A stretch of DNA of 63,702 nucleotides, the filler included, from Stramenopiles sp. TOSAG23-2 (lineage: Eukaryota), in assembly GCA_900128395.1 (NCBI GenBank). It is 27 parts of 27 records of this genome, joined end to end, with 100 filler letters (N's around TTAATTAATTAA, not from the genome) between each part and the next. Parts side by side here need not be neighbours in the genome. Positions count along the whole stretch, not along the records: positions 15,248 to 18,956 come from LT651121.1; 26 more parts are not named here. The stretch is one strand, 5' to 3'. Made by a program: the position numbers and the translations under genes. The notes beneath the pieces were generated by a model. It did no database searches. It saw only the letters and a list, made by a program, of their open reading frames with translations, and was not told the origin of the DNA. Positions 7,745 through 42,158 of this stretch are shown in pieces. Every line of letters starts with the position of its first letter. The first letter of the stretch is position 1.

Positions 7745-10549
7745 ATGGACACAGCAACATCTCTACATACCTCAGCCGACTAATACATTGGTGGCTTTAA
7801 TAATAATAATAAAAAAAATAGAAAAAAACATGGCAATGGCAAGATTACGTATGGATATACTGTGTGGCAATTTAAGATTGGAACAGAGCAACGACAACGA
7901 CGAAAACAGAGCAACGACGAGAGTCGTCTGTATTATGGTGGTAGAAGTTATGAGGGTCAGTGGAAGAATGACAAATATCATGGAGAAGGTATGTATACTT
8001 ATCCAGATGGTATGACTATCAAGGGAAAATGGAAAGAGGGAACCAAATGCGGTAAATGCATCATAAGTGTACCAAAACGTTGCTCTAAATATGAAGTAGA
8101 GTTTAATTGCAGAGGTATACCGAAAGAAGTAGGAACATTATACGATACTTGTACTGTATCTGATCCTCGACGTAAAACGTGTGAAACCTACAAGCAATAC
8201 AAAAATGGAAAACTTACTGTGGAAGGGGATTTTGTTATGGAGGGAGATTTCATCTATAAAGATCATAAAAAATCCTACCAAAAAAAAGACTTTACGAAGA
8301 CTATAAAACGAAGTGAAAGAGAAAGGAATTCTATGAAAAGCATGTTTATAAAACAGGGACAAACCGTCACTGTCCGCAACGCAGAACCACATAGAACTCA
8401 ATGGGAAAAAAATTTGGAAGTCTATACATTTGCAACGGAAATTTTCATGTATGGTATGGTTAAACAAAAGTTCGATGATGGCCGTACATATAGTGGAATG
8501 GTTAAATTAGATCGTTTACATGGTTTTGGTACCTATAAGTGGCCCAAAGATTATAAATTTTCTTCAGTTCTAAAAGACCATGATATAAAGTTTGTCGAAT
8601 TAGTAGGTAGTTTTAGACACGGCAATGTTGTGAACGGGGAATTAAAATTCAAAATTGGCAAAGTAAATTCTTCAATTGAATTTGAGAATATTGATCACAA
8701 TATAATTGGATTATCCGGTCTTGTTGTTGATTGGTTGGTCAATGCACCGAAAGTAACACGAAAATGTAAGTTTTGTCAACATTTTCCTGTTAAACAAAAG
8801 TTCGATGATGGCCGTACATATAGTGGAATGGTTGAATTAGATCGTTTACATTGTTCTGGTACCTATAAGTGGCCCAAAGATTATAAATTTTCTTCAGTTC
8901 TAAAAGACCATGATATAAAGTTTGTCGAATTAGTAGGTAGTTTTAGACACGGCAATGTTGTGAAAGGGGAATTAAAATTCAAAATTGGCAAAGTAAATTC
9001 TTCAATTAAATTTGGGTATATTGATCACGATATAATTGGATTATCCGCTCTGGTTGTTGATTGGTTGGTCAATGCACCGAAAGTAACACGAAAATGTGAG
9101 ATTTGTCAACAATTTCTTTATACATCGACAATAACAATCAGTACTGGTCAACACGTAACATGCACAAAGCAAGAGTTGCGAAAAGAAAGGATATGGTGTT
9201 ATGACAAAGTTTTAAAACGTTTGCCTATGACATATCCAGTGTCATCTCTACCAGTGCAACGATTACCGCAACACGGAGGGGGTTACAACTATGGTAATTA
9301 CAACTATACAACTAGTAGTTTAGATTCACAGGCACGGCCTTATTTTAATCATGCAGATTATTTACTAAATATGCCACCTTGTTGTCAAACATGCTATGAT
9401 AATAAAAATGAGAAATATATTACAATTGTAAACAAATTGAAAGATGAAAGAATGGAATATTTAGAGATTAAGCGAAAAGAATTTTACAAAAAAAATACTA
9501 AGAGAAAGAATCCGCAAGGGTTGTCAAACCCTGGTCATGGGAAACAATATGTTTATGCAAATACTTACAAAAAAAGTGCTTTTTCCTTCTGTCGATTTTT
9601 TTCTCGTGGATTTGGTATTTATGAATATCCTGGTACCCGACACGAGAAACCTATGCAAGCTGGATCATTAAAAGTTACACCGCATGTAGAAGAAGATAAA
9701 AATGAATCTAAGGAAATGAAAAACAACAATATGGTCATCGTCGCGTGTGAAAAAGGCAGATTAAACGATGTTAAAACATTTATTAAAAATGGCACGGTGG
9801 AAGATGTTAATACATATGAAGGGAATAGTAGTGATGGTAATGGTTATACACTACTACATGCAGCATCGCGCTACGAACATTATGAAATTGTCCAGTATTT
9901 GCTATCCCTACCTGGCATCGATGTGGGTGTTGCAGATAGTGATGGATGGACAGCCATTATGTGGGCTGCTATGCTCAACGAAAAGAATTTGGATGTTCTA
10001 AAAGCATTATTGAATCATAAAACATGTACATGGGAAGTGTTAAACAAAAAGACTATCCATGATAAAAATACAGCATTGGATTTCACAAAAAAAGAACTGG
10101 TAAAAACACAGAATCGGATTTCAGAAAAGGAACACCCAATGATAGATTTGTTACAACAAAAAATAAATGAATTACAAAATGCCGGAGCTCGGCACAGGCG
10201 TGAAACGCAGTTGATGCGATTGGAAAACTTGATGATGGTGAACATCAATACCTGTGGATTTCGTGTTTGCCGTGATTCCCATGGCTTTGTTGATTCGTTT
10301 GTTGTTACAGATTCGGACAAATTAAAATCATTTGCTGGTGACTTATGTGCACCCGACCGGGATATGCTGTTAACTTTTGTGCCGGATGAAATTGCTTTTG
10401 ATGACAATGATGATGGCAACGGCAGTGGTGGTGGTGAAGATGATGATTCATTCCCATCCTTTGAAATTGCTTTTGATGACAATGATGATGGCAACGGCAG
10501 TGGTGGTGGTGAAGATGATGATCCATTCTCATCCTTTGGTGATTTTTAG
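7745..10549 (+). CDS. MORN-repeat + duplicated 110-aa module + ankyrin-repeat protein (in-frame TAA at 7781 near the 5' end)
   Basis: MORN motifs YEGQWKNDKYHGEGMYTYPDG and TYSGMVKLDRLHGFGTYKW. Ankyrin motifs GYTLLHAASRYEHYEIVQYLL and DGWTAIMWAAM. The frame extends upstream of 7862 through YIGGFNN..KHGNGKITY to a TAA, with an ATG at 7745. Confidence 0.75.

Positions 10550-15247: not shown

Positions 15248-15301
<54 letters not shown>
15248..15301 (+). repeat. (TATC)n microsatellite at contig start
   Basis: Direct run of TATC units. Confidence 0.95.
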
Positions 15302-15302
<1 letters not shown>

Positions 15303-15954
15303 ATATTATTAATAAGAAAGGAGAAAAAAAAAAAAAAAAAAGAAGAAGAAGATATTATTATTTATTATTAATAATAATAATTTGGATCTTATTTATTATA
15401 GCAGATGTGAATTAAATTCGGATATCAAGTGTTATATAGATTATTATTTAAATAAAAAAGAATAAAAATTACCTATTTTTTGTACTTTTTTATACTATAT
15501 TTTAAGCCTATTCTCATATAATACTATTATATAGTAGTTTTGAAAAATGATATAAAATAATATAGTTTTGATATTATTTAATATTATAATAATCGCGTAC
15601 GCTGGAGAGCAGCGGTAAAAACTAGAATAAATAATAATCTATATATTCTTATAATAATATATTTTTATATTTATCATCACACTTGAAACATCATATTTAC
15701 CAATAAATACTGTATTAATATATATCCAATTTTATTGATGATAGAGATTGTTGCCGCTACCTGCAACTAATATAAAATAGAAAAGATATATTCCTAATAT
15801 ACAGAACATATAAGCCTTTCAATCTTTCAATTGATTAAAAATTAATATAAATTACGAAATTGCATATATTAAGATAGGTTTTTTAGTTAGTTATATATAC
15901 ATATTTGTTTGTACGTATATATAATACTTCCCATAAAGTGTATAATTTAATAAA

Positions 15955-17299
15955 ATGAATAATAATAATAATAATAATATGCCGGTGGATCAAGACGAAG
16001 AAAGTGTAATAGACGAGGACGTACTAGAAGCCTTGATAAATCAAGGAGATTATCAACCAAAGTGTCCTTTCATGATTGAATTAAAATTTGATAATTTATC
16101 GTTTCCTCCGCATGATATTTTACATACGCAATACAAGGATAAATCAGGCAATTATAATAAATCTTGTCGTTGTTTCTGTCTTCTAGCTGGAAAGTTACCA
16201 CCAAATACCATTAATCGACATCAATAATAATCACACTCAAGGATCCTACTATTGGCAAGCGGAAGATAAAACTGGGAAGCATATTAAATATCGACACCCA
16301 ATACGTTTTGATAACAATAATAATTATACTGAACTACCATTTAGCACGAAGTTCAAACCAAATTCAAACAAACGAACGTATTGGAGGATATATTATAAGG
16401 AAAATAATGAAGATACCCATAATCAAGCAAGAATTAAAATTTATAGCGACATTTTTTTTGATGCAATTATTGTTATTGGGCATATTAACCAAAAAAAAGG
16501 AACCAATGAAAGTAACAAAAAGAGGCAAAAGTTGCACCCTTGGAGTTATGGTGACATCCATGGAGAAACGAAACTTCGACCTATAACATTCGATATATTT
16601 GCGGTAGGAAATAGTTCATCTAATTCTCCATTAAATGTAATTGGATTGGGAAACGATTCGTCTAATTCTCAACTTGTAATATCGGAATCTAACAAAACTA
16701 ATAATCCACATGTGAATAGTCTATTGGCAAATAATGTAATTGCTAATAATGCAGCATTTAATAAACTTGTTACAGATCAATTAACAGTTTTATCAGATTC
16801 GAAATTAAAAGCTATTATTAAAGAATGCCCAAAGAATGTTTTACATAAAATTATTGATTTACCACTTTACATATATGAATGGAAAAAATCAGGTGATTTA
16901 GATGCTGGATTTATTGCAGAAGATTTATGGAGAATTGGTGTTGCACTTAATATGCCATTAGTACGATTTGAGGATGGAACAAAAGTTACGAAAGATAATA
17001 TACATAAACGTGTCGATGAAAATGGTAAATTCAAAAATGGGAAACGTTTAGTTATTAATACAAATGCATTGAACTCATTAAATATATCATGTATAAAAGA
17101 ATTGCAAAGAAATCAAACTATACTAAAAGAAGACCAAATTAAACATGTATCTGATGTTGCAAAGAAATTAAATCAATTTAAACAACGTATTGAATTATTA
17201 TTTAGCAAACTTCAAAAAGATATTACAGATGTAAAGAAGAAGCAAGATAATTTGAAAATAAAGCATGATGCTTTAGTAGGAGATGTTGATCAATTGTGA
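15955..17299 (+). CDS. MYRF-like protein: putative DNA-binding N-terminal domain + peptidase S74/ICA autoprocessing chaperone + coiled coil (frameshift or intron near 16187-16224)
   Basis: S74 motif LSDSKLK (Ser codon at 16793) followed by LPLYIYEWK..AGFIAEDL..LV...LVIN...I..IKEL. The frame of ORF 16532 is open back to 16187 and contains AIIVIGH, a basic NKKRQKL, W and FAVGNSSSNSPLNVIG, resembling the MYRF DBD-ICA linker. Confidence 0.7.
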
Positions 17300-18956
17300 A
17301 TTGAAGTTGCGGACGACTTAAATGATATCAATCGAAATCAACAACTGTTAGAAGATAAACTAAACCAAGGACAGGAACAGGTCATAACTTTCGAAGGCAA
17401 ATTGACATTTCCTGCATCATCAAAGGCCGTAAAAGAACTATTTAGCCTCTCAAATTCTGAAAGTCCTACACGTGCTGATGAAGTAAACAGGATACCAGAA
17501 AAAGGAAGCAACGGTAAATTTAATTGGCGACAAGAGAATGTGCTAGGCACCGGTAGTTTTGGCGAAGTTTATCTTGGTACTGATATGAATTCTGGAATGT
17601 CGATGGCGGTCAAAAAATTAGTAGTTAGAAATGCTAGCGATAAAAATACAATAATCCAGGAGGTAGAAATATTCCGATGTTTAAACCATAAAAATATAAT
17701 AAAGTATTTTGGCACGGAAGTTGAGACCGTTAATAGTGTATGTAAAGTTTTCATCTTCGCAGAGTATATGCCATGCGGATCGTTGGATGATGTGTTGAAT
17801 AAACATACCGGTTCACTGCCAATTTCGTTGATACAAAGGTACACTATACAAATAGTAGAAGGCTTGATTTATATACATGCCCAAAAAATTATCCATCGGG
17901 ATATAAAACCAGCAAATATTTTGGTAGATCAAAATGGTAACGTAAAATTAGCTGATATTGGTACATCAAAAAAGCTTTTAGGTAATGAAGAAAGTGAAGG
18001 AATGCCAGTTGGAACACCGTACTACATGGCACCAGAAATTATGGGGGAATTGCCGTGTAATGAAAAAGCAGATGTTTGGAGCTTAGGTGGTGCAATTTTA
18101 AAGTTGGCAACAGGTGATCCACCATGGAAGGAGCTAGGGTTTAGAGGCGAACCAATAATCTTGTTATCACATGTGGCGAGGAATCGTAATCTTGTACCAA
18201 AATTACCAGATAAAGATATTTTCTCAGAAGATTTGCAATCGTTTTTGAAAATGTGTTTTCAACATAATGTGGAAAATCGTCCAACATCGACAGATATACG
18301 TATACATCCGTTTTTACAACAGAAACAGAGCCGACAAAAAAACGGATCACCAAGTAATACTATGGAAGTTACTATGGAACAACTTCAAAATATACAAGTA
18401 GGCCTACCTAGCAGTGATCGTAGTACTATTAACAATAACAGCTTTGATAGTAGCGCAACAAGTACATCGCATAAGTTAAATCAACCTGTTTCTAATAATG
18501 ATAATAATGAAATTGGTGATGATGAAACAAAGCAAGATCCGGTGAAGGGCAATCCATTTGGACGAAATGCCAATAATCATGACATCTCTTTTTCAAATTT
18601 TGAACATAACATAGTTGGCCATTCTGAAACGACAAGTTCTAAGAGTACTGAGGAACGTGATGGTATTGATGAAAATGGCATTTCCAATCTCCAGGTAAAT
18701 CAGGTACCTGATATCAGTCAACTTGTACTGTCTGCTGCAATTGACGTAAATCGGGTAGAAAAAGTAAAGCTTCCATTATTTGGCCCACATTTGGTATACA
18801 TGCTGGTCCGGAACAGTATTAAAGACGATGAAAAACGCCGTGCAGAAGTCAGTTCTTGTATATCAATTAATGCCCTATTTAATTTATGTAATATTAAACA
18901 TGAGCCTGATAATTTACCGGATAATATCATGAACAACATACGCTTAATATGCAATG
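17300..18956 (+). CDS. STE11/MAP3K-like Ser/Thr kinase (3'-partial), in frame with the upstream S74 ORF across one TGA
   Basis: LGTGSFGEVYLG, MAVKK, HRDIKPANIL, DIG (in place of DFG), GTPYYMAPE, ADVWSLG. Same frame as 16532-17299, with no stop between 17300 and 17402. Confidence 0.88.
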
Positions 18957-19409: not shown

Positions 19410-19976
19410 TCATCTACGTATTTCATTACCATGTTCATCATATTTATTTGCAATTCCACCTTTTGAACGTAAAAGTGCAATCATTTCTTGTTTAATTGGA
19501 CTATGATTATATCCATAACAAGTATCCAATGGAGTGTCTCCCTCTTCATCTGTCTTATTAATACTGTTAAGAGTCATATGATGTAACAACAACTGAATCA
19601 ACTCAGTAGTAGTTCTGTTAATTACTGCTAAATGTAATGCATTCCATCCATAACTATCTGCTATATTAGGATCAGCTTCACATTGTTCAATTAAATATTG
19701 AACTAGTTGGAAATCTTCGTTCTCTGCAGCTGCCATTAAAGGTGTACGTTCCAGACCATGACTAATTTTACCGACTTGACTCACCATATCTTTCAATGTC
19801 ATATCATCTCTGTAGCCATTCACATCACGATTAGTAATATACTTGTGAAAAGGATGAAGACTCATAAATAATTCTACATCATCCATACGTCCGTGTTCAC
19901 ATGCACATAGAATAGGTGTTGGTATTTCACCTTCGAGTTCTTCCTCTGTACCATGTGGAAACTCTCTTTTCCCATA
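19410..19976 (-). CDS. Ankyrin-repeat protein (probably 5'-truncated copy of an expanded family)
   Basis: TPLMAAAENEDFQLVQYLI, GWNALHLAV, GDTPLD. The frame extends upstream through KREFPHG..TPILCACEHGRMDDV to a TGA with no earlier ATG. Confidence 0.75.
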   Translation of the reverse strand, partial: YGKREFPHGTEEELEGEIPTPILCACEHGRMDDVELFMSLHPFHKYITNRDVNGYRDDMTLKDMVSQVGKISHGLERTPLMAAAENEDFQLVQYLIEQCEADPNIADSYGWNALHLAVINRTTTELIQLLLHHMTLNSINKTDEEGDTPLDTCYGYNHSPIKQEMIALLRSKGGIANKYDEHGNEIRR

Positions 19977-20274: not shown

Positions 20275-22701
20275 TTATGCCTTTTGAAATAACACATCTG
20301 GTGCCTCCCAAGTTGTTTCTCCGGTTGTCACATTGTGATAATAAGGCTTACCCATGTTTTCATCAATATATTCAATCCATTCATTTTCATTATCAATTGC
20401 CATTATAGAACGACGGTTTGGTTTTGAATTTTTATTTAAACTTGGTTTGGGCAGTTGATCTTCAATAGCAAAACCAATTGCTGATTCGCGAATTGGGTTT
20501 AAATGTCGATTTTGAAGTGGATTTAAGTGAAATGTATTTTTATTTTCAGTTTCTTCACTATTGCCACTGTCATTGTAGTCTTTTGGTTTATTACGTTGTT
20601 TTAGTTCAATAGCATTCATATCCCATGTATTTCTATTTTGTAGCTTGATATTATTTTTAAAATCATCTTTTGGCCTTTTAAATATTCGTTTATATACCAC
20701 AAATCCACCATATGATAATGCTACAACGAACAGCAAGGAAACAATTATGGCACTTACTGATGAAGTATTTTTTGAGGTTGCTTCCTCATTGTCATTACCA
20801 CCTGTCTCCTGGTTGTTAACTTCATCATCACCTGAGCTACGAGCTGCATTTCCATTTTCTAACTTTGTGTATTTCTTTTTAACGTTAGGCTGTTGTACAT
20901 TGTCTATGACAGCATTTAAACTTGGTGACTCTTTCTTAATATTTGTTTCAAGAGTGGATTTAAATGTGTCTGCTTTCATGTTAGCTTCAATTTCCTTTGC
21001 TTTAATAGCATCATTAACTTCTACTTCATAAATAATTTCAACAATAGTATTTGACCCAAGTAAATACCTTCGTCTTTTCTCTTCTTCAATAATATTTATG
21101 ATCTTAACCCTTTCTGCTTGTATTCCTAACGAATATGCCAATGCTTTCTCTATATTTTTCTTATTTTCTTCCATTTGTTTCTTCGTCGTCCCGTGGAATT
21201 CAATTTTTTGTTCTACAACAATGGTTTCAATTGCTTCAGCAGGGGGTAAAGTTGTACGAGTTAATGTTGGAGATGCTGTGGTGGAATATTTTGGAGATGT
21301 TGTGACTGGTCTATCATCAGCGGTTGTAGTTGTACATCCACCAACGGTATATGGATCACCATCAGTTGTGCATTTGGTTACAGTTGGATTGTTACCTTCG
21401 TATCCTGATGCACATTGTAAATTTGTAACACCAAAACCATTATCCATCCGTAAACTTGTTTCAGTAATTTGTGAAAAATCGTATCCAATACTATTACTTG
21501 GACTAGGACGTACACAATATGGGATTTTAGTACATCCATTAAGTAAATATGGTTGGCCATCATTTGTACATTTAATTACAGTTGGATTATTACCTTCATA
21601 CCCTGATGCACATTGTAAATTTGTAACATCAAAACCATTATCCATCCGTAAACTTGTTTCAGTAATTTGTGAAAAATCGTATCCAATACTATTACTTGGA
21701 CTAGGACGTACACAATATGGGATTTTAGTACATCCATTAAGTAAATATGGTTGGCCATCATTTGTACATTTAATTACAGTTGGATTATTACCTTCATACC
21801 CTGATGCACATTGTAAATTTGTAACATCAAAACCATTATCCATCCGTAAACTTGTTTCAGTAATTTGTGAAAAATCATATCCAATACTATTACTTGGACT
21901 TGGACGTACACAAGATGGAATTTTAGTACACCCACTAACGGTATATGGATCACCATCATTTGTACATTTAGTTACAGTTAGATTACCTTCGTATCCGGAA
22001 GCACATTTCAGTCCACTAACACTAAATGAACCCATTTTTAAATTTTCATTTACACTTGAATAATCATAACCGGTACTTGTTGTACTTCTTAAACAAGAAG
22101 TTCTGCATAGACATTTTTTGTTATATGTGCAACTTCCAGTATTTGACATATGAACATTAAATTTTAATCTGTTAGCAAAATAATAACATCCGTTTGGATA
22201 ATTCCATCGACCGTCTTTATTGTCATTTTCTGCCGTCTTATCATTGAAACCTAACTCTGTAGCAGCAACTTCACAATCGGATATAGATGTAATACTATAA
22301 TCACATTTTGAACTTCTTTGCGATTTATACAGAGCCGTTGTAGATGTAAGTATTCTCCCTGCCACCTTACAACCAGTAATTGTATACGGCTCGCCGTCTT
22401 TCTTACACATAGTTGCAGTTGGATTATTGCCCTCATATCCAGACGCACATTGTAAATTACTAACATCGAAATAATTACCATCCATTCGTAAACTTGTTTC
22501 AGCAATTTTTGAAAAATCATATCCAATACTTTTGCTTGCACTTGGGCGTATACAATATGAAATTTTAGATTTAGATGAATTTGGTAACGTACCTGTAGTA
22601 GTTATATTTTCCATCAAAGGTGTTGCACTTACAATCGTTGCTGCAAGTAAATAATTTAGTGTCAAGGTGACTATATAGATTCTTTGCGATATTTGTATCA
22701 T
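20275..22701 (-). CDS. Type I membrane protein: signal peptide, Cys-rich 66-aa repeats, stalk, TM, cytoplasmic WW domain
   Basis: Repeats CVRPS..GYDFS....LQCASGYEG....C..DG.PY...GC; TM AIIVSLLFVVALSYGGFVVY; WW motif EWIEYIDENMGKPYYHNVTTGETTWEAP. Confidence 0.85.
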   Translation of the reverse strand: MIQISQRIYIVTLTLNYLLAATIVSATPLMENITTTGTLPNSSKSKISYCIRPSASKSIGYDFSKIAETSLRMDGNYFDVSNLQCASGYEGNNPTATMCKKDGEPYTITGCKVAGRILTSTTALYKSQRSSKCDYSITSISDCEVAATELGFNDKTAENDNKDGRWNYPNGCYYFANRLKFNVHMSNTGSCTYNKKCLCRTSCLRSTTSTGYDYSSVNENLKMGSFSVSGLKCASGYEGNLTVTKCTNDGDPYTVSGCTKIPSCVRPSPSNSIGYDFSQITETSLRMDNGFDVTNLQCASGYEGNNPTVIKCTNDGQPYLLNGCTKIPYCVRPSPSNSIGYDFSQITETSLRMDNGFDVTNLQCASGYEGNNPTVIKCTNDGQPYLLNGCTKIPYCVRPSPSNSIGYDFSQITETSLRMDNGFGVTNLQCASGYEGNNPTVTKCTTDGDPYTVGGCTTTTADDRPVTTSPKYSTTASPTLTRTTLPPAEAIETIVVEQKIEFHGTTKKQMEENKKNIEKALAYSLGIQAERVKIINIIEEEKRRRYLLGSNTIVEIIYEVEVNDAIKAKEIEANMKADTFKSTLETNIKKESPSLNAVIDNVQQPNVKKKYTKLENGNAARSSGDDEVNNQETGGNDNEEATSKNTSSVSAIIVSLLFVVALSYGGFVVYKRIFKRPKDDFKNNIKLQNRNTWDMNAIELKQRNKPKDYNDSGNSEETENKNTFHLNPLQNRHLNPIRESAIGFAIEDQLPKPSLNKNSKPNRRSIMAIDNENEWIEYIDENMGKPYYHNVTTGETTWEAPDVLFQKA

Positions 22702-23715
22702 TTTTTGCGTTTTTTATCTTGATATATAGGTTTGAATAAATAATTTTGTTATCAAAAATGNNNNNNNNNNNNNNNNNNNNNNNNNNNNNNNNNNNNNNNN
22801 NNNNTTAATTAATTAANNNNNNNNNNNNNNNNNNNNNNNNNNNNNNNNNNNNNNNNNNNNAATTACAGCAAGTGTCGTGAAAAAATGTGATACAATTATG
22901 CATCATACGTAAAAAGAATTCTTTTTCGTCCCTGCTGGGCTGCGCTGGGTGTATATATCATGTGTGGGAAGAGTGTCAGAGACTGGAGTTTGTAAGAGAT
23001 AGATATTAGATGCACACCTTAGACGAGTACGAAGTTCGTTAGGAGCTTATGTGTGGTTAAAACGTGAAAGACGAAAGACGAAAGAGAGCGAAGAGAGAGA
23101 TTTTCAATATTAATTAAAAAAATAATAAAAATTTTATATTTCATATTCAATGTCATATACACTCAAATCTCAAATCTCAAAACAGAATTAAAGAGAGAAT
23201 AAAAATGTATTTTTCTAAATACTACAGTAGTGAAGCTCTATTAATAATGCACCTTCTGCAACCTTAAGGTTTCTATTGTGTTTCTAATCCTTCCACGTGC
23301 GCACCTCGGTTGAATGCGGGTTTCATTCGAAAACGGTGAGGCTGTCATATTTAAAAAAATTATTAACGCTCTCGTAGGCTGGTATGATATTGAGAATGTG
23401 CGAATGATGGTGAAAAAATCTAATTACATAAAGTTTTACCATTTTACGAAGGTAATAATAACTAGAGAGTTCTTATATAATATATATATATAGAATTTAT
23501 GGGAACTTTTTTTTACGGTTCGTAACAGACATTTTTACGGTTCGTATTTTTCATAATCCTTTATCCCATATGTGTGTGTATGATGTATAGTATGAGATAC
23601 TTTTTTATAATTATAAAATACGAATTAACTCTCCTCCTTCCTGTGTGATGATGTGATATATATATATATATATGTACATATATTAATTACACCCTTGATC
23701 TTCAACGATTTTTAA

Positions 23716-34092: not shown

Positions 34093-34755
34093 GAGATTTT
34101 TTTTATCAAGCACGTTGTACATCATGAAATGTAAGGCCTAATTATTTATATATATTTACTTCATNNNNNNNNNNNNNNNNNNNNNNNNNNNNNNNNNNNN
34201 NNNNNNNNTTAATTAATTAANNNNNNNNNNNNNNNNNNNNNNNNNNNNNNNNNNNNNNNNNNNNTATTTTCAATGTTTTTCCTTTGTTTTCATGTAATGA
34301 AATGAAAAATCCAACATCACAACAATGAATAATAAGAATTTAGGTTGAAAATGTTGATTTTGATGAAATTTGATGAAAAATATGCGAGTTGTAATGGTAT
34401 GTAATACTTTCAACATACGACTATGGTATACGTCGCTACGCTCCTTGCTCCATTTTAAAAGGAGTGTAGCAGACCAGTATAATATTTATAGAGGAGACAC
34501 CATTAGTGTGAAGGGACCGAGTACGACTATGGTGTTAGCCGCCAGTTAGCTCTCATCAGTTTCAGCGAGAGCAAATAATAATAGTGCAATAATAATATCT
34601 TTTGTATAAGAGTTGCAAGACACATATCTATTTTTTCTATCTAAAAAATGTAATTATCACAGAGGTATTCCTGACATCGATATTCAAAATATAAAGATTA
34701 CAACATAGAAGTAAAATATAGATTGAACAAACAAAAGACAGAACAACCAATAAGA

Positions 34756-37700
34756 ATGAATTACTTCTTAAAGATATATGTATTCATCACCGTGGTGATC
34801 GCTGCTGTATCAGTTGCATCAGTTGCATCTTCCTCCACTGCTTGTAGCAACAGCTTGTATAAAATTAACAATTTACAAGTAGACAGTTCGAAATATATTA
34901 TTGATCGGTTAAATCCTAAATTTAGTTGGGGAAGTGAGCTAGTAGCTAATAGCAAGACTCAAACAACATTTAAACAAGAGAAATTCATTATAAGCATTGT
35001 CGATGACGCAACGTCGAAAATGGTTTGGCAAAGTGGAGTTATTCGTTCCTCGAAGCCAGTTTATCGTGCTCCAACTTTACCTATTCAACACTTTAGGAAA
35101 TATACTTGGTTTGTAAAAAGTTTTGACTCTCGTGGCTGTTGGATTACATCAGAAAAAAGCAATTTATATGTATCGAATAATTCCATATTCGAATCTGCCA
35201 AATGGATAGGAAGCCACGAGAATAATCAATATAGGGGCGAATTCAAAATCGATACTAGCAAAAAAATTAGTTCTGCTCATATACATGTTTGTGGATTGTC
35301 ATTTTCATATGTTAGTGTTAATGGTAATTTATTAACGTCGATACATTTAACTTCTGCACCATGGACAAACAACGAACGTTCGAATGGTTATAGTACTGTC
35401 GATATAACAAAATATTTAGGCAATCAAGAGACGCAAGCTGTCGGAATCACATTAGGATATGGTTGGAGAAATAGAACAATGTTTGTTGTTAAGGATACTG
35501 AAGATCCAGGACTGAAGCAGGATACAATTGATCGTGTTTTAATAATGTCACTCGCAGTTGTGTATGAAGGAGAAAATAAAACAAGTATTGTTTTACAAAG
35601 TGGAGATGGACGATTTGAAGCAAGTAAAGGCCCTGTAATCTATGATTCGGTATACAACGGGGAAACGTTTGATTCTCGACTTGCAGATGATGGTTGGGAT
35701 ACAATTAATTTCGATAAAACGACAAGTAAAGTATCATGGGAAAAAGCATCTGTTGTTCCTGGACCAACCGGTGTATTATTTCCGTGGATACATACACCAA
35801 TACAAATCACAAGGACAGTAAAACCTGTTCAAATTACCAAACCGTATGATGGCGTTTACGTAGTTGATTTCGGTGCAAATTTAGCTGGTGTCACACAATT
35901 GATTAACATTGATTGTAAACAAGATTCAAACGTAACATTGATCCACGCAGAGATCATGCAACATGCTGGCTTACCAGGACTTCCTAATCCAGATCCAAAA
36001 CTTGTTTATACTGCTAATTTGAGAAGCGCAAAGGCAACGGATGTGTATATTTGCAATGGTTCACCAGAAAATTCATACATGCCACGTTTAACATATCACG
36101 GATTTCGTTTCGTAGAAGTACATGTTGGTGATAGTGGAGTTAAAATTACCAATGATAATATAGAAATGTTACATTTTCATTCCGCAGTTGTTCAAAAAGC
36201 GGCTATTAATTTCCAATCGGATACGTTGAATCGTATACAAAAGATGGCTGTTGGAGCTCAGAGATCAAATTTAATGTCCGTTCCAACTGATTGTGATCAA
36301 CGAGATGAAAGACTTGGTTGGATGGGCGATGCAAATTTATCTGGTGAATCTATGATGTTGAATTTTGACATGCCAGGTTTCTTTCGCCATTTCATTAATA
36401 TAATGACGTCTGAACAAGATGAAGATGGCAGCTTACCAGATGTAGTGCCGTTTGTACGATTTGGTGGAAGACCAGCAGATGTTTCATGGAGTGGAGTTTA
36501 TGTAAATTGGTTTTACCAATTGTGGAAACATGATGATGATTTAGATACTGCAAAAGAGCATTTAGATGACATGTTAAGCCAACTGGACAATGTTAAGATG
36601 CAAGCGAAAGCAGGGTTAAATAAAATGCATACACCATACGGCGATTGGTGCCCACCACCGATAAAAATGGGCACAGGTCAAGGGCCTAAACCCTCCTCGC
36701 CATATACCAGCGCGTTTTCTTATCTGGCAATGATTGGACAAGTACAAGAAATCGCATTAGCATTAGGTAATAAAACAGTATCTAGTAAATTATCAACTAT
36801 GTTCAACGAAGTAGCAAAAGAATTTAACAATGTATTTTATTCTACAAAAAACGAAACAGTGTATGATAATGGACTGCAAACTGCTTTAGTCCTTCCTATG
36901 GCATTAAATATCGTCCCAGACATGGATCGAGCTAAAGATGCATTGTTGGCAAGCATTAAGAAAATGAATGGACATTATAATTGTGGGATTGTTGGTTTCC
37001 GATGGTTGTTTGATGTATTATCCAATATAAATGAACATGACATGGCATTAAATCTCCTGTCCAACACGGACTACCCTAGTATTGGTTATTATTTTGCGAA
37101 TGGAGAAGAAGCAGCAACAGAAAACTTATGGGAATTACCAGATGCCAATCGTGAAGGTGTAGGTATGAATTCAAGGAATCATCATATGTGGAGTAGTTAC
37201 AGTTCTTATTTAGTACGTAAAGTTGCAGGGATAAGTCAACATCGTGCTTCATCTGGTCATTGGGATTTAGAATTAAGACCTGGTTATTTCAAGGATTTAT
37301 CGTATGCATCATCTACGTTAAAATTAAAACAAGGAGATGTTGTATTAAATTGGGAAAAGATTGGTGGAACACATTGTGATCGTGCAGCGAAAGGTGATGT
37401 TGTCCATCTTAATTGTGGTGAAAATGGTGGTGTAATCTCAGAAGTTACGTTTGCATCATATGGATTTTTAAAAGGTACTACTTGTAGCTCAATGAAAGTT
37501 ACATCATGCCAAGATCCAAATACACACAAAAAAGTAACAGAGATGTGTCTAGGAAAAAATCGTTGTGACGTAAAAAGTTCATCTGATATTATCTGTAATG
37601 GTGACGTTGATCAAGTTGAGCAGCTTGTAGTAAAGGTAAAATGTTCAAGCAAGGCAAAATTACATGTGAAGACAGTAGTGCCATTAGGTAGCAAGGCAAG

Positions 37701-37806
37701 GCTGTATTATCAAGAAAGTAGTAGCGCTTCTTCGAATTTGAAAAAAGTAGAAAAATTTGTTGATTTATTGGAAAGTGGTTCATATGAACATGTATTTGAA
37801 TATTAA
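34756..37806 (+). CDS. Secreted GH78 alpha-L-rhamnosidase with a SUEL/galactose-binding lectin insert
   Basis: Signal peptide from ATG 34756. Motifs VVDFGANLAG, TYHGFRFVEV, PTDCDQRDERLGWMGD, YGDWCPP, NLWE..NSRNHHMWSS. Lectin motif LNCG..GVISEVTFASYG...C...CLGKNRC. Confidence 0.92.
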   Translation: MNYFLKIYVFITVVIAAVSVASVASSSTACSNSLYKINNLQVDSSKYIIDRLNPKFSWGSELVANSKTQTTFKQEKFIISIVDDATSKMVWQSGVIRSSKPVYRAPTLPIQHFRKYTWFVKSFDSRGCWITSEKSNLYVSNNSIFESAKWIGSHENNQYRGEFKIDTSKKISSAHIHVCGLSFSYVSVNGNLLTSIHLTSAPWTNNERSNGYSTVDITKYLGNQETQAVGITLGYGWRNRTMFVVKDTEDPGLKQDTIDRVLIMSLAVVYEGENKTSIVLQSGDGRFEASKGPVIYDSVYNGETFDSRLADDGWDTINFDKTTSKVSWEKASVVPGPTGVLFPWIHTPIQITRTVKPVQITKPYDGVYVVDFGANLAGVTQLINIDCKQDSNVTLIHAEIMQHAGLPGLPNPDPKLVYTANLRSAKATDVYICNGSPENSYMPRLTYHGFRFVEVHVGDSGVKITNDNIEMLHFHSAVVQKAAINFQSDTLNRIQKMAVGAQRSNLMSVPTDCDQRDERLGWMGDANLSGESMMLNFDMPGFFRHFINIMTSEQDEDGSLPDVVPFVRFGGRPADVSWSGVYVNWFYQLWKHDDDLDTAKEHLDDMLSQLDNVKMQAKAGLNKMHTPYGDWCPPPIKMGTGQGPKPSSPYTSAFSYLAMIGQVQEIALALGNKTVSSKLSTMFNEVAKEFNNVFYSTKNETVYDNGLQTALVLPMALNIVPDMDRAKDALLASIKKMNGHYNCGIVGFRWLFDVLSNINEHDMALNLLSNTDYPSIGYYFANGEEAATENLWELPDANREGVGMNSRNHHMWSSYSSYLVRKVAGISQHRASSGHWDLELRPGYFKDLSYASSTLKLKQGDVVLNWEKIGGTHCDRAAKGDVVHLNCGENGGVISEVTFASYGFLKGTTCSSMKVTSCQDPNTHKKVTEMCLGKNRCDVKSSSDIICNGDVDQVEQLVVKVKCSSKAKLHVKTVVPLGSKARLYYQESSSASSNLKKVEKFVDLLESGSYEHVFEY

Positions 37807-38056: not shown

Positions 38057-41000
38057 TGTATTGTTTGTTTTTAATCCTTCACCAATACTTTGTACATCAG
38101 TAATATTATTACTACGTAGGTACAATTTCGTTAATGTATTGTTTGATTTTAATGCATCACCAATACATTGTACATCAGTAATATTATTATGTTGTAGGTC
38201 CAATTCCGTTAATGTCTTGTTTGTTTTTAATGCTTCGCCAATACTTTGTACATCAGTAATATTATTATCAGATAGGTCCAATTTCGTTAATGTCTTGTTT
38301 GTTTTTAATGCTTCGCCAATACTTTGTACATCAGTAATATTATTATGATCTAGTTTCAATGTCGTTAATGTCTTGTTCGTTTTTAACAATTCACCAATAA
38401 TTACAATATCTGCATTGGTAAGCTTTAAATTTTTAAAATTTAACGTCTTGTGAAATTTACCTTTTGTTTTTATCATCTCTAATTCATTCCTCTCTAGTCT
38501 TATTGCTATATCTTTAAGAGTCTTAGTATTCGCAATATTATTATCATTTAGTTCCAATCTCGTTAATGTCTTGTTTGTTTTTAATGCTTCACCAATACTT
38601 TCTACATCAGTAATATTATTATTAGATAGGGACAATATCTCTAATGTCTTGTTTGTTTTTAATGCTTCACCAATACTTTGTACATCAGTAATATTATTAT
38701 TTTTTAGGTCCAAGTTCTGCAATGTCTTGTTTGTTTTTAATGCTTCAACAATATATCTCACATTTAAATCATTAACACCACTTGCTTTTTCACCACTTGG
38801 AGTAGCTGCAATTCTTATTTTATCACTTCTTTTATCCAAAACATTTTGAAATGCAACAAAACACGTATCATCAAATGCTTCTACATTTTCCCAATCCAAG
38901 AATGCTTTTACATTTTCCCATCCAAGATCAATTATTTCAATATTAAACTTATCATTATGTTCAATATATTTTGATAATTTTTTTAAATGTTCATTATTTA
39001 TGTGACAATCACTAAAATCTAATTTTCCAGTATTTGACTTTGTTTTTTTTTCATTATTTACAAGAAACATCTTGAACACATATCCGGGTATCCCACCACC
39101 AATGTTCATATTATCAGCAGTGTGATTATCATCTGTTTTATCTTGCTGTTTACAACGTTTTATTGTTTCCCATAAATATAATATCCCGGATTTTCCTAAT
39201 GCATCCTGTATTCCCAATTTAAAGCCTTGATATTGCATTCGAAAAAAATCATTATAAATATCTTCATCTAGCCAAATTAAAAAAATCACGCAACAACATC
39301 CTATGCATCCAAAACAAACACACAAGACAAAAACAACAAAACCATACATTAAAACTAACAATTCCCAACCAATTTCAAAACAATGATAAAATTTTTCACC
39401 TAACCAATACGGTGGATATACTATTGCAATTGCATAACGCAATGTCTTTTCAGAAAGACTTTTATCAAATTCTTCCATATATTGATTAATAAACCATAAA
39501 ATTGCAATTAAACGCTCAAAGGCCAACAAACCAAGCGAAAATGACATTGGTAATTGTACCCTAAGTGAAAGATCGGTTGGCCATGAAAATACAAAATTAA
39601 AATCAAGAGTAAAAGCAAAATCAAAAACAGGTTGCCAATCCAGTTCTAATCTTAAACTTTTAAGCATAGTTTCATATGTATCCATTTTGCCATTATACAC
39701 ATCTAAAAAATGCAACGATGCAACGCATATCCCCATGTATAAAATTGTTAACACTTTTAATGTAAATAATTCTGTTCCATCGTTGTTTGTGTCATCACTA
39801 TCGCGTATTTGGTCGATTAATTTTGGCGTTTTCATTGTCATGTATAGTTCTTTTACCTTTTTTCGTTCTTCATACTTTAGAGAATCGAATTTTACTCCTT
39901 CGCAACCTGTATACTTTTCTGTTAATTTATCTTTTTCCTCGTCGCTTAAATCGTCAAATTTGCCAAAATAATACTCCACCAACTCCTCTTTCTCCTCATC
40001 ATCTAACTTCGCTAAATCAGACTTTTCATAGCAACATAAACAACATCTACAACACAACCAACGTCCTTTTAAAATTTGTACCGGTAAATGCAAAAATACA
40101 AAAGGAATGATATAAATTGCTGGTAAAATTGCCCATGATGAAAGAAATAATAATGGCCAAAACACCATTGTCATTAACATATAAACAAACCAACACATAC
40201 TAGTTAAATATACGTAAATTAAACTCAGCCAATTAATTTCAAATGGTTGCGTTCCCGGTAAAACAAAATCTTGATATTTCGATAATGGTTGTGACCGTCT
40301 ACATATAAATGATTTATAATAATTACAAAAAAAGGTTAGTGTATAATCACAAAAAAGTTAGTATATAAATTTAAAGTAGACGACAGTGTACAAAGTTTAT
40401 AAATAAATTTCTATTTTTATTAAATATAATACTTACCTAGCTTGCCAATGGACAAATTGCATTAATGGCATTAATGCTGGCCACATTGCAATTGAAATAG
40501 GTTTATACAATGGCAATACTGTAAAATGTGCTGCACGGCATATAAGCTGAGTTTTAAATGATTTGCTTTCTAAATCTGGTACTCGATGATCCCAATATTC
40601 AATAGTTAGAATAATTGTAATGATAGCATGCACAACATACATAATCATATCAATAAATTCTGCCTTTTCATTATCTTCTGCTGGCTTTTCCACATCAAAA
40701 TGTTCATTCTCGTTGTTGCCTAATCCAATAGCAGTATCTTTCATCGTTTCTTGTAATTCGTCCATATTTTCTTCCATCGCATCTACTTGTTCATTGATAT
40801 TAATTTTGATATCTTCAATTGTTTCATTTAATTTATCTTTTATATCGTTTTTTATTTTTTGTTTAACTTTCTTAAGTTTATATTTTGCTTCATCTTTAAA
40901 TGTTCTTTTATGTGAACTATTTAGCATATCAGGTGCTGATGTTCGACGTTGCTTTTGTTTCTTTGGTAAATTTGTTGTTGTATTGCTACTACCACGACGT

Positions 41001-41677
41001 ATTTGTTTTGTATGCTTCTTATTGATACTATTATTTTTATTTAATGTAATTTTACTATTTGTAATCCTATTGTTGTTATTATTATTATTGGTCATTTTCT
41101 TGATATTTGCAGTCCCTCTTACAGTATGTCGACGATCTTTCTTTTTACTATTGTTATTATTATTATTATTATTATTATTGGTATCAAAATCTCTATTGTT
41201 TAATATCCGTGTCTTCTGATAAGCTTTTAAATCTTTGTTGGTCCTATATCTAAAGGTATCTTTTTCTATTTCTTCGTTTCCATACAAAGGATTTATAAAT
41301 TGTTTAGCGTGTACCATTTTTATTTCTTTTTCAGGCACGTCTTCTTTTTTGTTCAGTGTAAAACTTGATATACATTTTTTTAATTGAATACCTCGATCTA
41401 TAACTGCTTTCCCAATTGTTGTTTTCGTAAAAATATATTTAATAGTAGACCAAAATGCACTAACACCTGTCAATGCAACCACTACTAAACATGCTGTAAA
41501 GAAGAACTCTGATAATGATAAATGTTGAGATGTAAATACTGTACTTGGATCAACTTCACATGCATTTGCAAGAGCATTGCGTATAAGTAATGACTTGTAA
41601 ATTTTTTTAACTTGAACTATGTTTGTTGTGCTGTTGGTGAAATTAGAGCTATTATTTATAATAGTAGCAAAATTCAT
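38057..41677 (-). CDS. Multi-pass membrane protein with C-terminal RI-like/NLRC3-type LRRs; two exons, intron 40299-40436 (3'-partial)
   Basis: The GTAAGT donor at 40436 and TAG acceptor at 40299 join ...HWQAR to RSQPLSKYQDFVLPG...LTSMCWFV in frame. The 26-aa LRR ALKTNKTLTKLDLSDNNITDVQSIGE is repeated. Confidence 0.85.
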
Positions 41678-42158
41678 TAGTATCTTGTAATTCTGTTTCT
41701 TTCGTATTTTTATTTTCGTTAATAAATTGTGATATATACTTTANNNNNNNNNNNNNNNNNNNNNNNNNNNNNNNNNNNNNNNNNNNNTTAATTAATTAAN
41801 NNNNNNNNNNNNNNNNNNNNNNNNNNNNNNNNNNNNNNNNNNNAAGTCCTTCCCCACGCAGTTCAACATGTGTTGCTTTTTGATTTTTTAAAATTTTTGG
41901 TGTGAGTGGACCAAAAAATATTTTACCGCACATATTTTATGATTCTTGCATTTTTATACAACAAACCAATTATTTCAATTTTTTACGATTAAACAACGGC
42001 ATATAAAAGTGTTTTAAAAATTTTCGGTAGTGTATTTTCGTATCATATATTTTATTTTTTTTACAAAAATAAATCATTTATCATTTTAATATAAATTATA
42101 TTCTAATTTATTTACGAGAAGCGTAATTTTTACACACCACACATCTCAAATTTTATCT

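What the first reader, a model, noticed from the sequence alone, without database searches (positions are those of the whole stretch)
15955..18956. MYRF-like self-cleaving factor (S74/ICA chaperone) fused in frame to a MAP3K-like kinase
Seen: one reading frame from 16187 to the contig end carries a beta-rich region ending IIVIGH, a basic KKRQK, the segment W..G....FAVGNSSSNSPLNVIG, the motif SDSKLK plus downstream S74 motifs, a coiled coil, and then (after one TGA) a complete STE11-like kinase domain and a further unknown domain. No TM segment lies between the ICA and the kinase. Known: ICA/peptidase S74 domains trimerise phage tailspikes and MYRF/MrfA and self-cleave through a Ser-Lys dyad (S-D-x-R/K-x-K). 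In MYRF this releases an Ndt80-type DNA-binding trimer from an ER TM anchor. Inference: here a kinase replaces the membrane anchor, giving a soluble trimeric polyprotein that could cut itself into a nuclear factor and an ICA-trimerised kinase. That would be a one-component signalling module that I do not recognise as described. The DNA-binding assignment is the weakest part.
Basis: partly seen in the sequence, partly recalled or inferred. Interest (0 to 1): 0.88.

Follow-up and report, generated by a model that had tools for sequence, protein, structure and literature searches.

The report
Self-cleaving phage-type domain joined to kinase
A marine protist gene joins a phage-type self-cleaving, trimer-forming domain to a MAP3K-like kinase, but this copy is broken by a frameshift and a stop codon, and its relatives carry immune-type domains where the kinase sits.

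Summary
On contig 15248-18956 one frame carries a Peptidase_S74 (ICA) domain, scoring above Pfam's cut-off. Its Ser/Lys(+5) pair SDSKLK is intact. A long coiled coil follows, then an in-frame TGA (17297-99), then a complete MAP3K-like kinase that runs to the contig end. There is no ATG between the TGA and the kinase glycine loop, and the heptad pattern runs on across the TGA. TGA is an ordinary stop elsewhere in this assembly.

I found a second lesion. The A-run at 16203-05 is one base longer than in two independent marine metagenomes. Without that base, the ATG at 15955 reads straight into the S74 frame.

The stretch 17213-17312, which holds the TGA, was bridged by no independent contig I could see, so a mis-join of paralogs is not excluded.

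The N-terminal part is not an Ndt80 domain, and its fold stayed unresolved.

Relatives are few. They share a variable N-part, a basic cluster, S74 and a coiled coil, followed by different C-terminal domains. Two metagenome loci have single long ORFs with S74 + TIR + helicase + LRR. Others carry STAND NTPases. None carries a kinase.

Verdict: probably one gene of an undescribed modular family, broken or mis-assembled here. "MYRF-like" applies only to the ICA module.

The parts
15955..16202 (+). 5' coding part in the frame of the ATG at 15955: poly-Asn, an acidic stretch, then the first beta-like segments
   Evidence: Translation. It reads into the S74 frame once one A of 16203-05 is left out, as in the X2 and X3 contigs (table 4).
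16203..16205 (+). AAA run holding one extra base compared with environmental copies (a +1 frameshift in this assembly)
   Evidence: one letter left out at 16203 in X2 record 11 (16044-16356) and X3 record 19 (16044-16275). These are 2 of the 2 DNA runs that cover the place.
16206..16516 (+). N-terminal beta-rich region of unknown fold, ending in IIVIGH
   Evidence: Translation. AF2 pLDDT below 50. No Pfam family at E<=10.
16517..16531 (+). Basic cluster KKRQK (NLS-like), 88 residues upstream of the cleavage Ser
   Evidence: Sequence. Comparable basic clusters stand in P0008, P0013, P0014 and P0016 between the N-part and S74. Nuclear import was not tested.
16541..16792 (+). Gly/Asn/Ser-rich stretch before the cleavage site. 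It is a candidate triple beta-helix, and its last part lies in the predicted trimer interface.
   Evidence: interface residues 169-213. PHROG tail-fibre matches start at residues 110-163.
16793..17059 (+). Peptidase_S74 / ICA domain. Putative cleavage Ser at 16793-95, Lys(+5) at 16808-10.
   Evidence: Pfam hit. Alignments. The family profile matches 3gud_A, whose chain starts at the aligned Ser (E 0.0012). AF2 pLDDT 64-89 over residues 210-290.
17060..17296 (+). Long helix predicted to form a trimeric coiled coil
   Evidence: AF2 helix 291-368. Heptad-spaced trimer contacts reach residue 369. Heptad table.
17297..17299 (+). In-frame TGA at a heptad b position
   Evidence: TGA ends other genes of the assembly. 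None of the contig pieces listed for the 4 laid runs bridges it.
17300..17527 (+). Continuation of the heptad pattern for about 3 heptads, then a linker. It holds no ATG.
   Evidence: X2 records 15 and 16 join 17313 onward to the kinase.
17528..18316 (+). Protein kinase domain, nearest solved relatives MAP3K2 and MAP3K5
   Evidence: Pfam Pkinase E 2.1e-61. PDB best hits 9p6a_A at 9.2e-45 and 4bib_A at 4.3e-44. GTGSFGEV, MAVKK, HRDIKPANIL, DIG and APE are seen.
18317..18955 (+). Low-complexity stretch, then the start of a further domain of unknown family, cut off by the contig end
   Evidence: No Pfam family in this part. RNA-library contigs X15 records 7 and 8 and X16 records 9 and 10 lie here.

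Best explanation
The locus is one gene for a soluble protein of at least 1000 residues. In order it carries a variable N-terminal beta-rich part, a basic cluster, a phage-type ICA (Peptidase_S74) domain, a trimeric coiled coil, a MAP3K-like kinase and a further C-terminal domain.

It belongs to a small family of AT-rich marine protists. In this family the module 'N-part + basic cluster + ICA + coiled coil' stands in front of interchangeable cytosolic signalling domains.

In this assembly the gene is broken twice: by one extra A at 16203-05 and by a TGA at 17297-99. These are either errors of a thinly covered assembly or lesions of a decaying or variant copy.

Inferred mechanism: the ICA and the coiled coil make a trimer. 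The Ser (16793-95) and Lys (+5) pair then cuts the chain. This frees an N-terminal trimer that carries the basic cluster, and it leaves an ICA-coiled-coil-kinase trimer whose kinase domains are held close together.

Shown here: the domains, the catalytic pair, the shared frame and the family. Inferred only: cleavage, trimer formation in the cell, nuclear entry and kinase activation.
For: - S74 scores above the Pfam cut-off and the kinase is complete.
- Ser and Lys(+5) align with the pair in relatives and with the first residue of the released GA-1 chaperone chain 3gud_A. S578/K583 are the catalytic pair in MYRF (PMC3742443, passages read).
- Homotrimer model of residues 125-369: score 0.88, best of 3 controls 0.11. 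The mark was reached by 21 of 30 proteins solved as pairs of one chain and 0 of 23 solved as single chains. On eukaryotes it was reached by 17 of 29, but by only 1 of the 7 with no older solved relative. Runs agree in at least 78% of contacts and pLDDT is at least 78. Like complexes are solved, so the pass may come from memory.
- The same frame holds 370 and 552 open codons. There is no ATG from the TGA to the glycine loop. The heptad pattern continues across the TGA.
- The frameshift is absent in 2 of 2 independent DNA runs that cover it.
- L002 has an uninterrupted 1511-codon ORF that runs from S74 through the coiled coil into TIR, helicase and LRR. L001 has the same domain order. P0007/P0014, P0012 and P0013 carry a helicase or a STAND NTPase after S74 and the coiled coil.
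- Contigs from poly-A RNA libraries lie on both halves.
Against: - TGA is a normal stop in this assembly. For example, the ankyrin gene 19410-19886(-) ends in TGA TGA.
- No independent contig listed bridges 17213-17312. X3 record 20, 98% alike over 16543-17212, runs on into other coding-like sequence.
- No relative has a kinase: 0 of 8, 0 of 5, 0 of 2.
- Searches for fused relatives or junction fragments found none.
- Two lesions in 3 kb fit a pseudogene.
- Cleavage, trimer formation and kinase activity are untested.
- The N-part has no recognisable fold.
Confidence: 0.6

Rival explanations
1. The contig is a mis-join of two paralogs, or of two genes, inside the repeated coiled-coil region near 17213-17312. 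In that case the S74 module and the kinase of this window do not belong to one molecule.
For: One search gives three pointers. None of the contig pieces listed for the 4 runs covers 17213-17312. X3 record 20 matches 16543-17212 and then continues with 57 unlike letters that still read as coiled-coil-like coding. X3 record 21 (1364 nt) shares only 17159-17181, which shows that paralogs with short identical stretches exist. In addition, no relative has a kinase.
Against: The frame and the heptad pattern are kept across the join. The kinase ORF has 76 upstream codons of coiled coil and linker and no ATG, so it needs some upstream coding partner. A join between paralogs would still imply a coiled-coil-plus-kinase member of the same family. 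33 contig pieces were not shown, so cover may exist.
Confidence: 0.15
2. The lesions are real and this copy is a dead pseudogene of a fast-turning-over gene family. The fusion existed, but it makes no full-length protein in this cell.
For: There are two disabling changes in 3 kb. L001, an independent assembly of a family member, also has an in-frame TGA. It sits where the neighbouring LRR repeat has GGA. Multi-copy families with variable ends are suggested.
Against: Environmental copies 98-99% alike lack the frameshift. Contigs from RNA libraries lie on both halves, one with 0 differences over 268 nt. The kinase motifs are intact. The probable source run is very small (8 million letters), so errors are plausible.
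Confidence: 0.2
3. The TGA is a true stop and the locus makes only the short N-part-ICA-coiled-coil protein. The kinase would be made separately, or only by rare read-through or selenocysteine decoding.
For: TGA is a stop elsewhere in the assembly. P0002 (365 aa) ends soon after its coiled coil.
Against: No ATG lies before the kinase glycine loop. P0002 is a fragment of a gene like L002, which runs on into a TIR domain. No Rfam element was found on the contig. No frame-keeping GT-AG intron spans the TGA when the sequence is read by eye. The coiled coil is unfinished at the TGA.
Confidence: 0.05

Closest known systems
MYRF / Dictyostelium MrfA (membrane-bound, self-cleaving transcription factors)
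   Same: Both have an ICA (Peptidase_S74) domain with a Ser and Lys(+5) pair inside a eukaryotic cytosolic protein. Both have a basic NLS-like cluster roughly 90 residues upstream of the cleavage Ser: MYRF NLS2 K482-K485 against S578 (PMC3742443, passages), and here KKRQK 88 residues upstream. The expected outcome is also the same, two trimers made from one chain.
   Different: No Ndt80/PhoG domain. No TM segment in the 1000 codons held. No MRF_C1/C2. The ICA is followed by a long coiled coil and a kinase.
Phage tailspike and tail-fibre intramolecular chaperone domains (K1F endosialidase, GA-1 neck appendage 3GUD, long tail fibres)
   Same: The family profile matches 3gud_A from its first residue, the post-cleavage Ser (E 0.0012), and 6f45_A (E 0.025). 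PHROG tail-fibre families match. A Gly/Asn/Ser-rich stretch precedes the Ser.
   Different: In phages the ICA is the C-terminal end and is discarded. Here it is internal and would stay attached to a coiled coil and a kinase.
MAP3K2 (MEKK2) and MAP3K5 (ASK1), STE11-type MAP3Ks
   Same: They are the best solved matches of the kinase domain (E 9.2e-45 and 4.3e-44). From my own knowledge, not tested here, these kinases are regulated by oligomerisation through coiled coils.
   Different: The N-terminal ICA module is not known in them. DFG reads DIG here. No phylogeny was made, so placement in the STE11 group rests on best hits only.
Ndt80 + 'chaperone of endosialidase' proteins that lack the MYRF C-terminal domain (PMC13294678)
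   Same: These are eukaryotic S74 proteins outside classical MYRF. The paper notes seven such proteins, from two fish, one sponge and four Amoebozoa (passages read).
   Different: Those proteins keep the Ndt80 domain and a TM segment. The present family has neither, and it carries kinase, TIR, helicase or STAND domains.
TIR-NTPase-LRR and STAND (NACHT/NPHP3_N) immune-type receptors
   Same: The relatives L001 and L002 (TIR_2 + ResIII + LRR) and P0012 and P0013 (NPHP3_N/NACHT) have these domains after the ICA module.
   Different: I found no such receptor described with an N-terminal ICA module. The window's own gene has a kinase instead.

Membership tests
Peptidase_S74 / ICA domain (PF13884) | Match to the family model above its curated cut-off | tested here: met
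   29.5 bits against a cut-off of 22, E 9.3e-07, residues 202-249. Supported by PHROG tail-fibre hits.
Peptidase_S74 / ICA domain (PF13884) | Catalytic Ser with Lys five residues on | tested here: met
   SDSKLK (16793-16810) aligns with SDSELK, SDERLK and SDKRLK of relatives and with the first residue of 3gud_A. The role of the pair is taken from PMC3742443 passages.
Peptidase_S74 / ICA domain (PF13884) | Forms a homotrimer | tested here: met
   Prediction only. Score 0.88 against a best control of 0.11, runs agree in at least 78% of contacts, pLDDT at least 78. The pass may come from memory of solved ICA trimers.
Peptidase_S74 / ICA domain (PF13884) | Self-cleavage at the Ser after folding | not testable with these tools
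   Needs expression with Ser and Lys mutants.
MYRF / MrfA family | Ndt80/PhoG DNA-binding domain N-terminal to the ICA | tested here: not met
   No PF05224 hit at E<=1 for the three window pieces, nor at E<=10 for 7 family members or pieces. The fold could not be modelled.
MYRF / MrfA family | TM segment C-terminal to the ICA | tested here: not met
   Highest 19-residue hydropathy is 1.21 in the sequence held. The C-terminus is cut off at 18955, so a later TM segment is not excluded.
MYRF / MrfA family | MRF_C1 / MRF_C2 domains | tested here: not met
   No such Pfam hit at E<=1. The same caveat about the cut-off C-terminus applies.
STE11-type MAP3K kinases | Complete eukaryotic protein kinase domain with catalytic motifs | tested here: met
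   Pkinase E 2.1e-61 over profile positions 2-263 of 263. Glycine loop, Lys, HRD and APE are present, and DFG reads DIG.
STE11-type MAP3K kinases | Groups with MAP3Ks rather than other kinase groups | tested here: inconclusive
   The best PDB hits are MAP3K2 and MAP3K5, but STE20-type and NEK kinases follow within 6-8 orders of magnitude in E-value. No tree was made.
New family: N-part + basic cluster + ICA + coiled coil + variable signalling domains | ICA and coiled coil 27-45% identical to the other members, followed in the same ORF by a cytosolic signalling domain | tested here: inconclusive
   The ICA and coiled coil meet this. The same-ORF condition is met in L002 and, but for one TGA, in L001. 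In the window it is interrupted by the TGA and not independently covered.

The most novel reading that the evidence does not exclude
Marine protists have a family of soluble one-chain signalling proteins. In them a phage-derived ICA module sits at the N-terminus of immune-type or stress-type signalling domains: TIR-helicase-LRR, STAND NTPase or MAP3K. Oligomerisation of the C-terminal sensor or kinase part would let the ICA trimerise and cut. That would send an N-terminal trimer with its basic cluster to the nucleus. This would be a membrane-free counterpart of MYRF that couples sensing directly to a nuclear response.
Probability: 0.15. Interest if true: 0.85.

Novelty: new variant of a known kind. 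Interest (0 to 1): 0.6.

Why it matters
In eukaryotes the ICA domain is known almost only from MYRF-type membrane-bound transcription factors. Here it appears without a membrane anchor and without the Ndt80 domain, placed in front of kinase, TIR, helicase or STAND domains.

If the architecture is real and the domain still cleaves, a phage tail-fibre folding device has been reused more than once as a trimerising, self-cutting switch in eukaryotic signalling proteins. It would also give a simple system for testing how cleavage is coupled to oligomerisation.

If the join is an artefact, the family seen in L001 and L002 still stands, but the kinase case falls.

Tried and rejected
- Whole genome of the window: not held.
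- Fused relatives of 507-1614 aa, searched with the S74 part: none. Short fragments spanning the junction (residues 320-450): none. The word index is insensitive, so these blanks are weak.
- Metagenome scan with the single protein: none. Viral contigs with profile A2: none.
- phmmer of the 369 aa against PDB: only coiled-coil noise.
- Foldseek of the AF2 model against PDB: nothing below E 0.47.
- AF2 of the window's 369 aa gave pLDDT below 50 for residues 1-209. AF2 of relative P0015 failed with mean pLDDT 33.8. The N-part fold is therefore unknown.
- Atlas look-alikes: phage structural proteins at 0.75-0.78 for the window's N-part, and Ig-like sandwiches at TM 0.27-0.38 for P0014. All are under the bar and serve as leads only.
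- N-parts of the subgroups do not align by BLASTP.
- Read laying: none of the contig pieces listed for the 4 runs covers 17213-17312, and 33 pieces were not shown. The X2 joint 17360 to 17407 (skips 46, 'between: not known') is probably a diverged stretch. Neither settles the TGA.
- TGA as a sense codon: rejected. Other genes end in TGA, the read-through tails look non-coding, and reading TGA as sense gains less open frame than reading TAA as sense.
- An intron over the TGA, or between the two frames: I found no frame-keeping GT-AG intron by reading. The frame change is explained by the one-base difference.
- Rfam on the contig: no match at E<=1.
- Paralogs in the window: none for the S74 part or the kinase.
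- Literature: five searches found no paper that joins S74/ICA to kinase, TIR or NACHT domains. Supplements are closed and could hold domain tables that list such architectures.
Full report
**What the window is.** The window is 27 short contigs joined by spacers of N. The finding lies on contig 15248-18956, so the "contig end" at 18956 is real. GC content is near 31%. The other contigs carry long, mostly uninterrupted ORFs with eukaryotic domains: HUN/ubinuclein, WW, ankyrin+MORN and phytochelatin synthase. The probable source run is a very small run of a coded organism. Marine metagenomes and poly-A metatranscriptomes hold parts of the stretch.

**The observation.** The frame of 16187 is open for 370 codons, meets the TGA at 17297-99, and is then open for 552 codons to the contig end.
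- Pfam gives Peptidase_S74 at residues 202-249 of the first piece (29.5 bits, cut-off 22, E 9.3e-07).
- Pfam gives a full Pkinase domain in the second piece (E 2.1e-61).
- PHROG tail-fibre families match the same region as S74.
- No hydrophobic stretch reaches TM level; the highest value is 1.21.
- The best solved relatives of the kinase are MAP3K2 and MAP3K5.

**The ICA domain.** The Ser of SDSKLK (16793-95) and the Lys five residues on align with the same pair in relatives. A profile of the family matches the released chaperone chain of the phage GA-1 neck appendage. That chain, 3gud_A, begins at the aligned Ser (E 0.0012). In MYRF, S578 and K583 form the catalytic pair, and folding plus trimer formation position them (PMC3742443, passages).

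A monomer AF2 model is confident only for residues 210-369 and shows one long helix at 291-368.

A model of three copies of residues 125-369 scored 0.88 in each of three runs, against 0.11 for the best of 3 controls. The calibration figures are these:
- The mark was reached by 21 of 30 proteins solved as pairs of one chain and by 0 of 23 solved as single chains.
- On eukaryotes it was reached by 17 of 29, but by only 1 of the 7 with no older solved relative.
- The runs agree in at least 78% of their contacts, and pLDDT is at least 78.

ICA trimers have been solved, so the pass may reflect likeness to them rather than binding of this copy. The contacts run in heptad steps to residue 369, the last before the TGA.

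**One gene or two?** Points in favour of one gene:
- Both parts share one frame.
- No ATG lies between the TGA and the kinase glycine loop.
- Hydrophobic heptad positions continue for about three heptads after the TGA.
- I found no frame-keeping GT-AG intron over the TGA when reading.

TGA is not a sense codon in this organism. Other genes end in it, one with TGA TGA, and their read-through tails look non-coding.

**A second lesion.** The ATG at 15955 opens a different frame. In both DNA runs that cover the place (X2 record 11 and X3 record 19), one letter of the A-run 16203-05 is missing. That missing letter joins the two frames without any intron. So this copy differs from environmental copies that are 98-99% alike by a disabling one-base insertion.

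**What stays open.** None of the contig pieces listed for the four laid runs covers 17213-17312, and 33 pieces were not shown. X3 record 20 follows the window from 16543 to 17212 and then runs into other sequence that still reads as coding. X3 record 21 shares only 23 letters. Paralogs with short identical stretches therefore exist, and a mis-join in the coiled-coil region cannot be excluded. X2 records 15 and 16 do link 17313 onward to the kinase. Contigs from poly-A RNA libraries lie on both halves, but none crosses the TGA.

**Relatives.** An exhaustive phmmer search of 1.84 billion representatives gave only 11 proteins at E<=0.001. I scanned 8 of the 11 with Pfam. I left out P0005 and P0006 as short fragments, and P0009 as a repetitive protein whose best-scoring stretch covered only 30 residues. 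Of the 8, 7 had S74 at E<=0.01 and 6 scored above the cut-off. None had a kinase.
- P0007/P0014 (886 and 897 aa) carry a ResIII-type helicase after S74 and the coiled coil.
- P0012 and P0013 carry NPHP3_N/NACHT STAND NTPases.
- A second metagenome scan found two loci. L002 has an uninterrupted 1511-codon ORF. L001 has a 1460-codon ORF that continues in frame after one TGA.
- Both have Peptidase_S74, TIR_2, ResIII/DEAD and LRR in that order. Both lie beside eukaryotic genes with ubiquitin-domain and ALG6/8 matches.
- Their LRR ends are 49-76% identical to another contig of the window (38057-38782, minus strand). The loci therefore come from a related organism.

These ORFs show that reading from the ICA through the coiled coil into cytosolic signalling domains is normal for the family. 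That is the best support for the window's join. No relative carries a kinase: 0 of 8, 0 of 5 and 0 of 2.

**The N-terminal part.** No Ndt80/PhoG match appears at E<=1 for the three window pieces, nor at E<=10 in 7 members or pieces. The N-parts of the subgroups do not align with one another. Two AF2 runs gave no usable model. Foldseek and Atlas look-alikes are below any bar.

What is shared is a basic cluster between the N-part and the ICA. In the window it is KKRQK, 88 residues before the Ser. Comparable clusters stand in P0008, P0013, P0014 and P0016. MYRF has its second NLS at a similar distance from its cleavage Ser. Nuclear entry is an inference, and DNA binding has no support.

**Mechanism.**
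- Shown: the domains, the catalytic pair, the family and the frame.
- Inferred: the ICA and the coiled coil trimerise; the Ser-Lys pair cuts; an N-terminal trimer with the basic cluster is freed; an ICA-coiled-coil-kinase trimer remains, with its kinase domains held together.
- From my own knowledge, not tested here: MAP3Ks of the ASK1/MEKK type are activated by oligomerisation.

**Comparison and novelty.** It works like MYRF only in the ICA step. It is not a MYRF member, since it lacks the Ndt80 domain, a TM segment and the MRF_C domains in what is held. The ICA is internal, unlike the C-terminal, discarded ICA of phage fibres.

Five full-text searches found no paper that joins S74/ICA to kinase, TIR or NACHT domains. 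The nearest is a note on Ndt80+S74 proteins that lack the MYRF C-terminus (PMC13294678, passages). Supplements were closed and may list such architectures.

**Verdict.** I rate it a new variant of a known kind. Confidence is about 0.6 that the window's S74-kinase chain is one true gene, and interest is 0.6. The family with TIR-helicase-LRR and STAND ends is the firmer finding. The kinase member needs its join and its two lesions checked in reads.

Noticed in passing
L001:9808-9810: The family member on L001 also has an in-frame TGA. It sits where the next LRR repeat has GGA (Gly) in the unit IGEGLKTNNTL, and the frame runs on to a TAA near 10129. This is a second in-frame TGA in this family, from an independent assembly. 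It could be a pseudogene lesion or a G-to-T error.
   Followed up: partly
window 38057-41743 (-): An ORF of 767 codons, cut off by the contig end, ends in LRR repeats 49-76% identical to the LRR ends of the L001/L002 S74-TIR-helicase-LRR proteins. The ORF upstream (40436-41740) has no Pfam family. This may be another large receptor-like gene of the same organism.
   Followed up: partly
window 34675-37803 (+): A 1043-codon ORF has a full bacterial-type alpha-L-rhamnosidase domain set plus a SUEL rhamnose-binding lectin domain. This is an unusual combination in a protist assembly. It could be gene transfer or a contaminant contig.
   Followed up: no
window 20278-22713 (-): An 812-codon ORF has four near-identical Cys-rich repeats (CASGYEGNNPT...), a TM-like stretch and a C-terminal WW domain.
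   Followed up: no
window 17159-17212 and 16777: Several metagenome contigs share only 23-31 letters with the gene and then diverge into other coding-like sequence (tables 7 and 8). This points to a multi-copy family with mosaic similarity in the environment.
   Followed up: partly
window, all spacers: The window is a chain of 27 contigs (about 3.7 kb each, then about 1.1 kb each) joined by N44-TTAATTAATTAA-N44. Features must not be read across these joins.
   Followed up: yes
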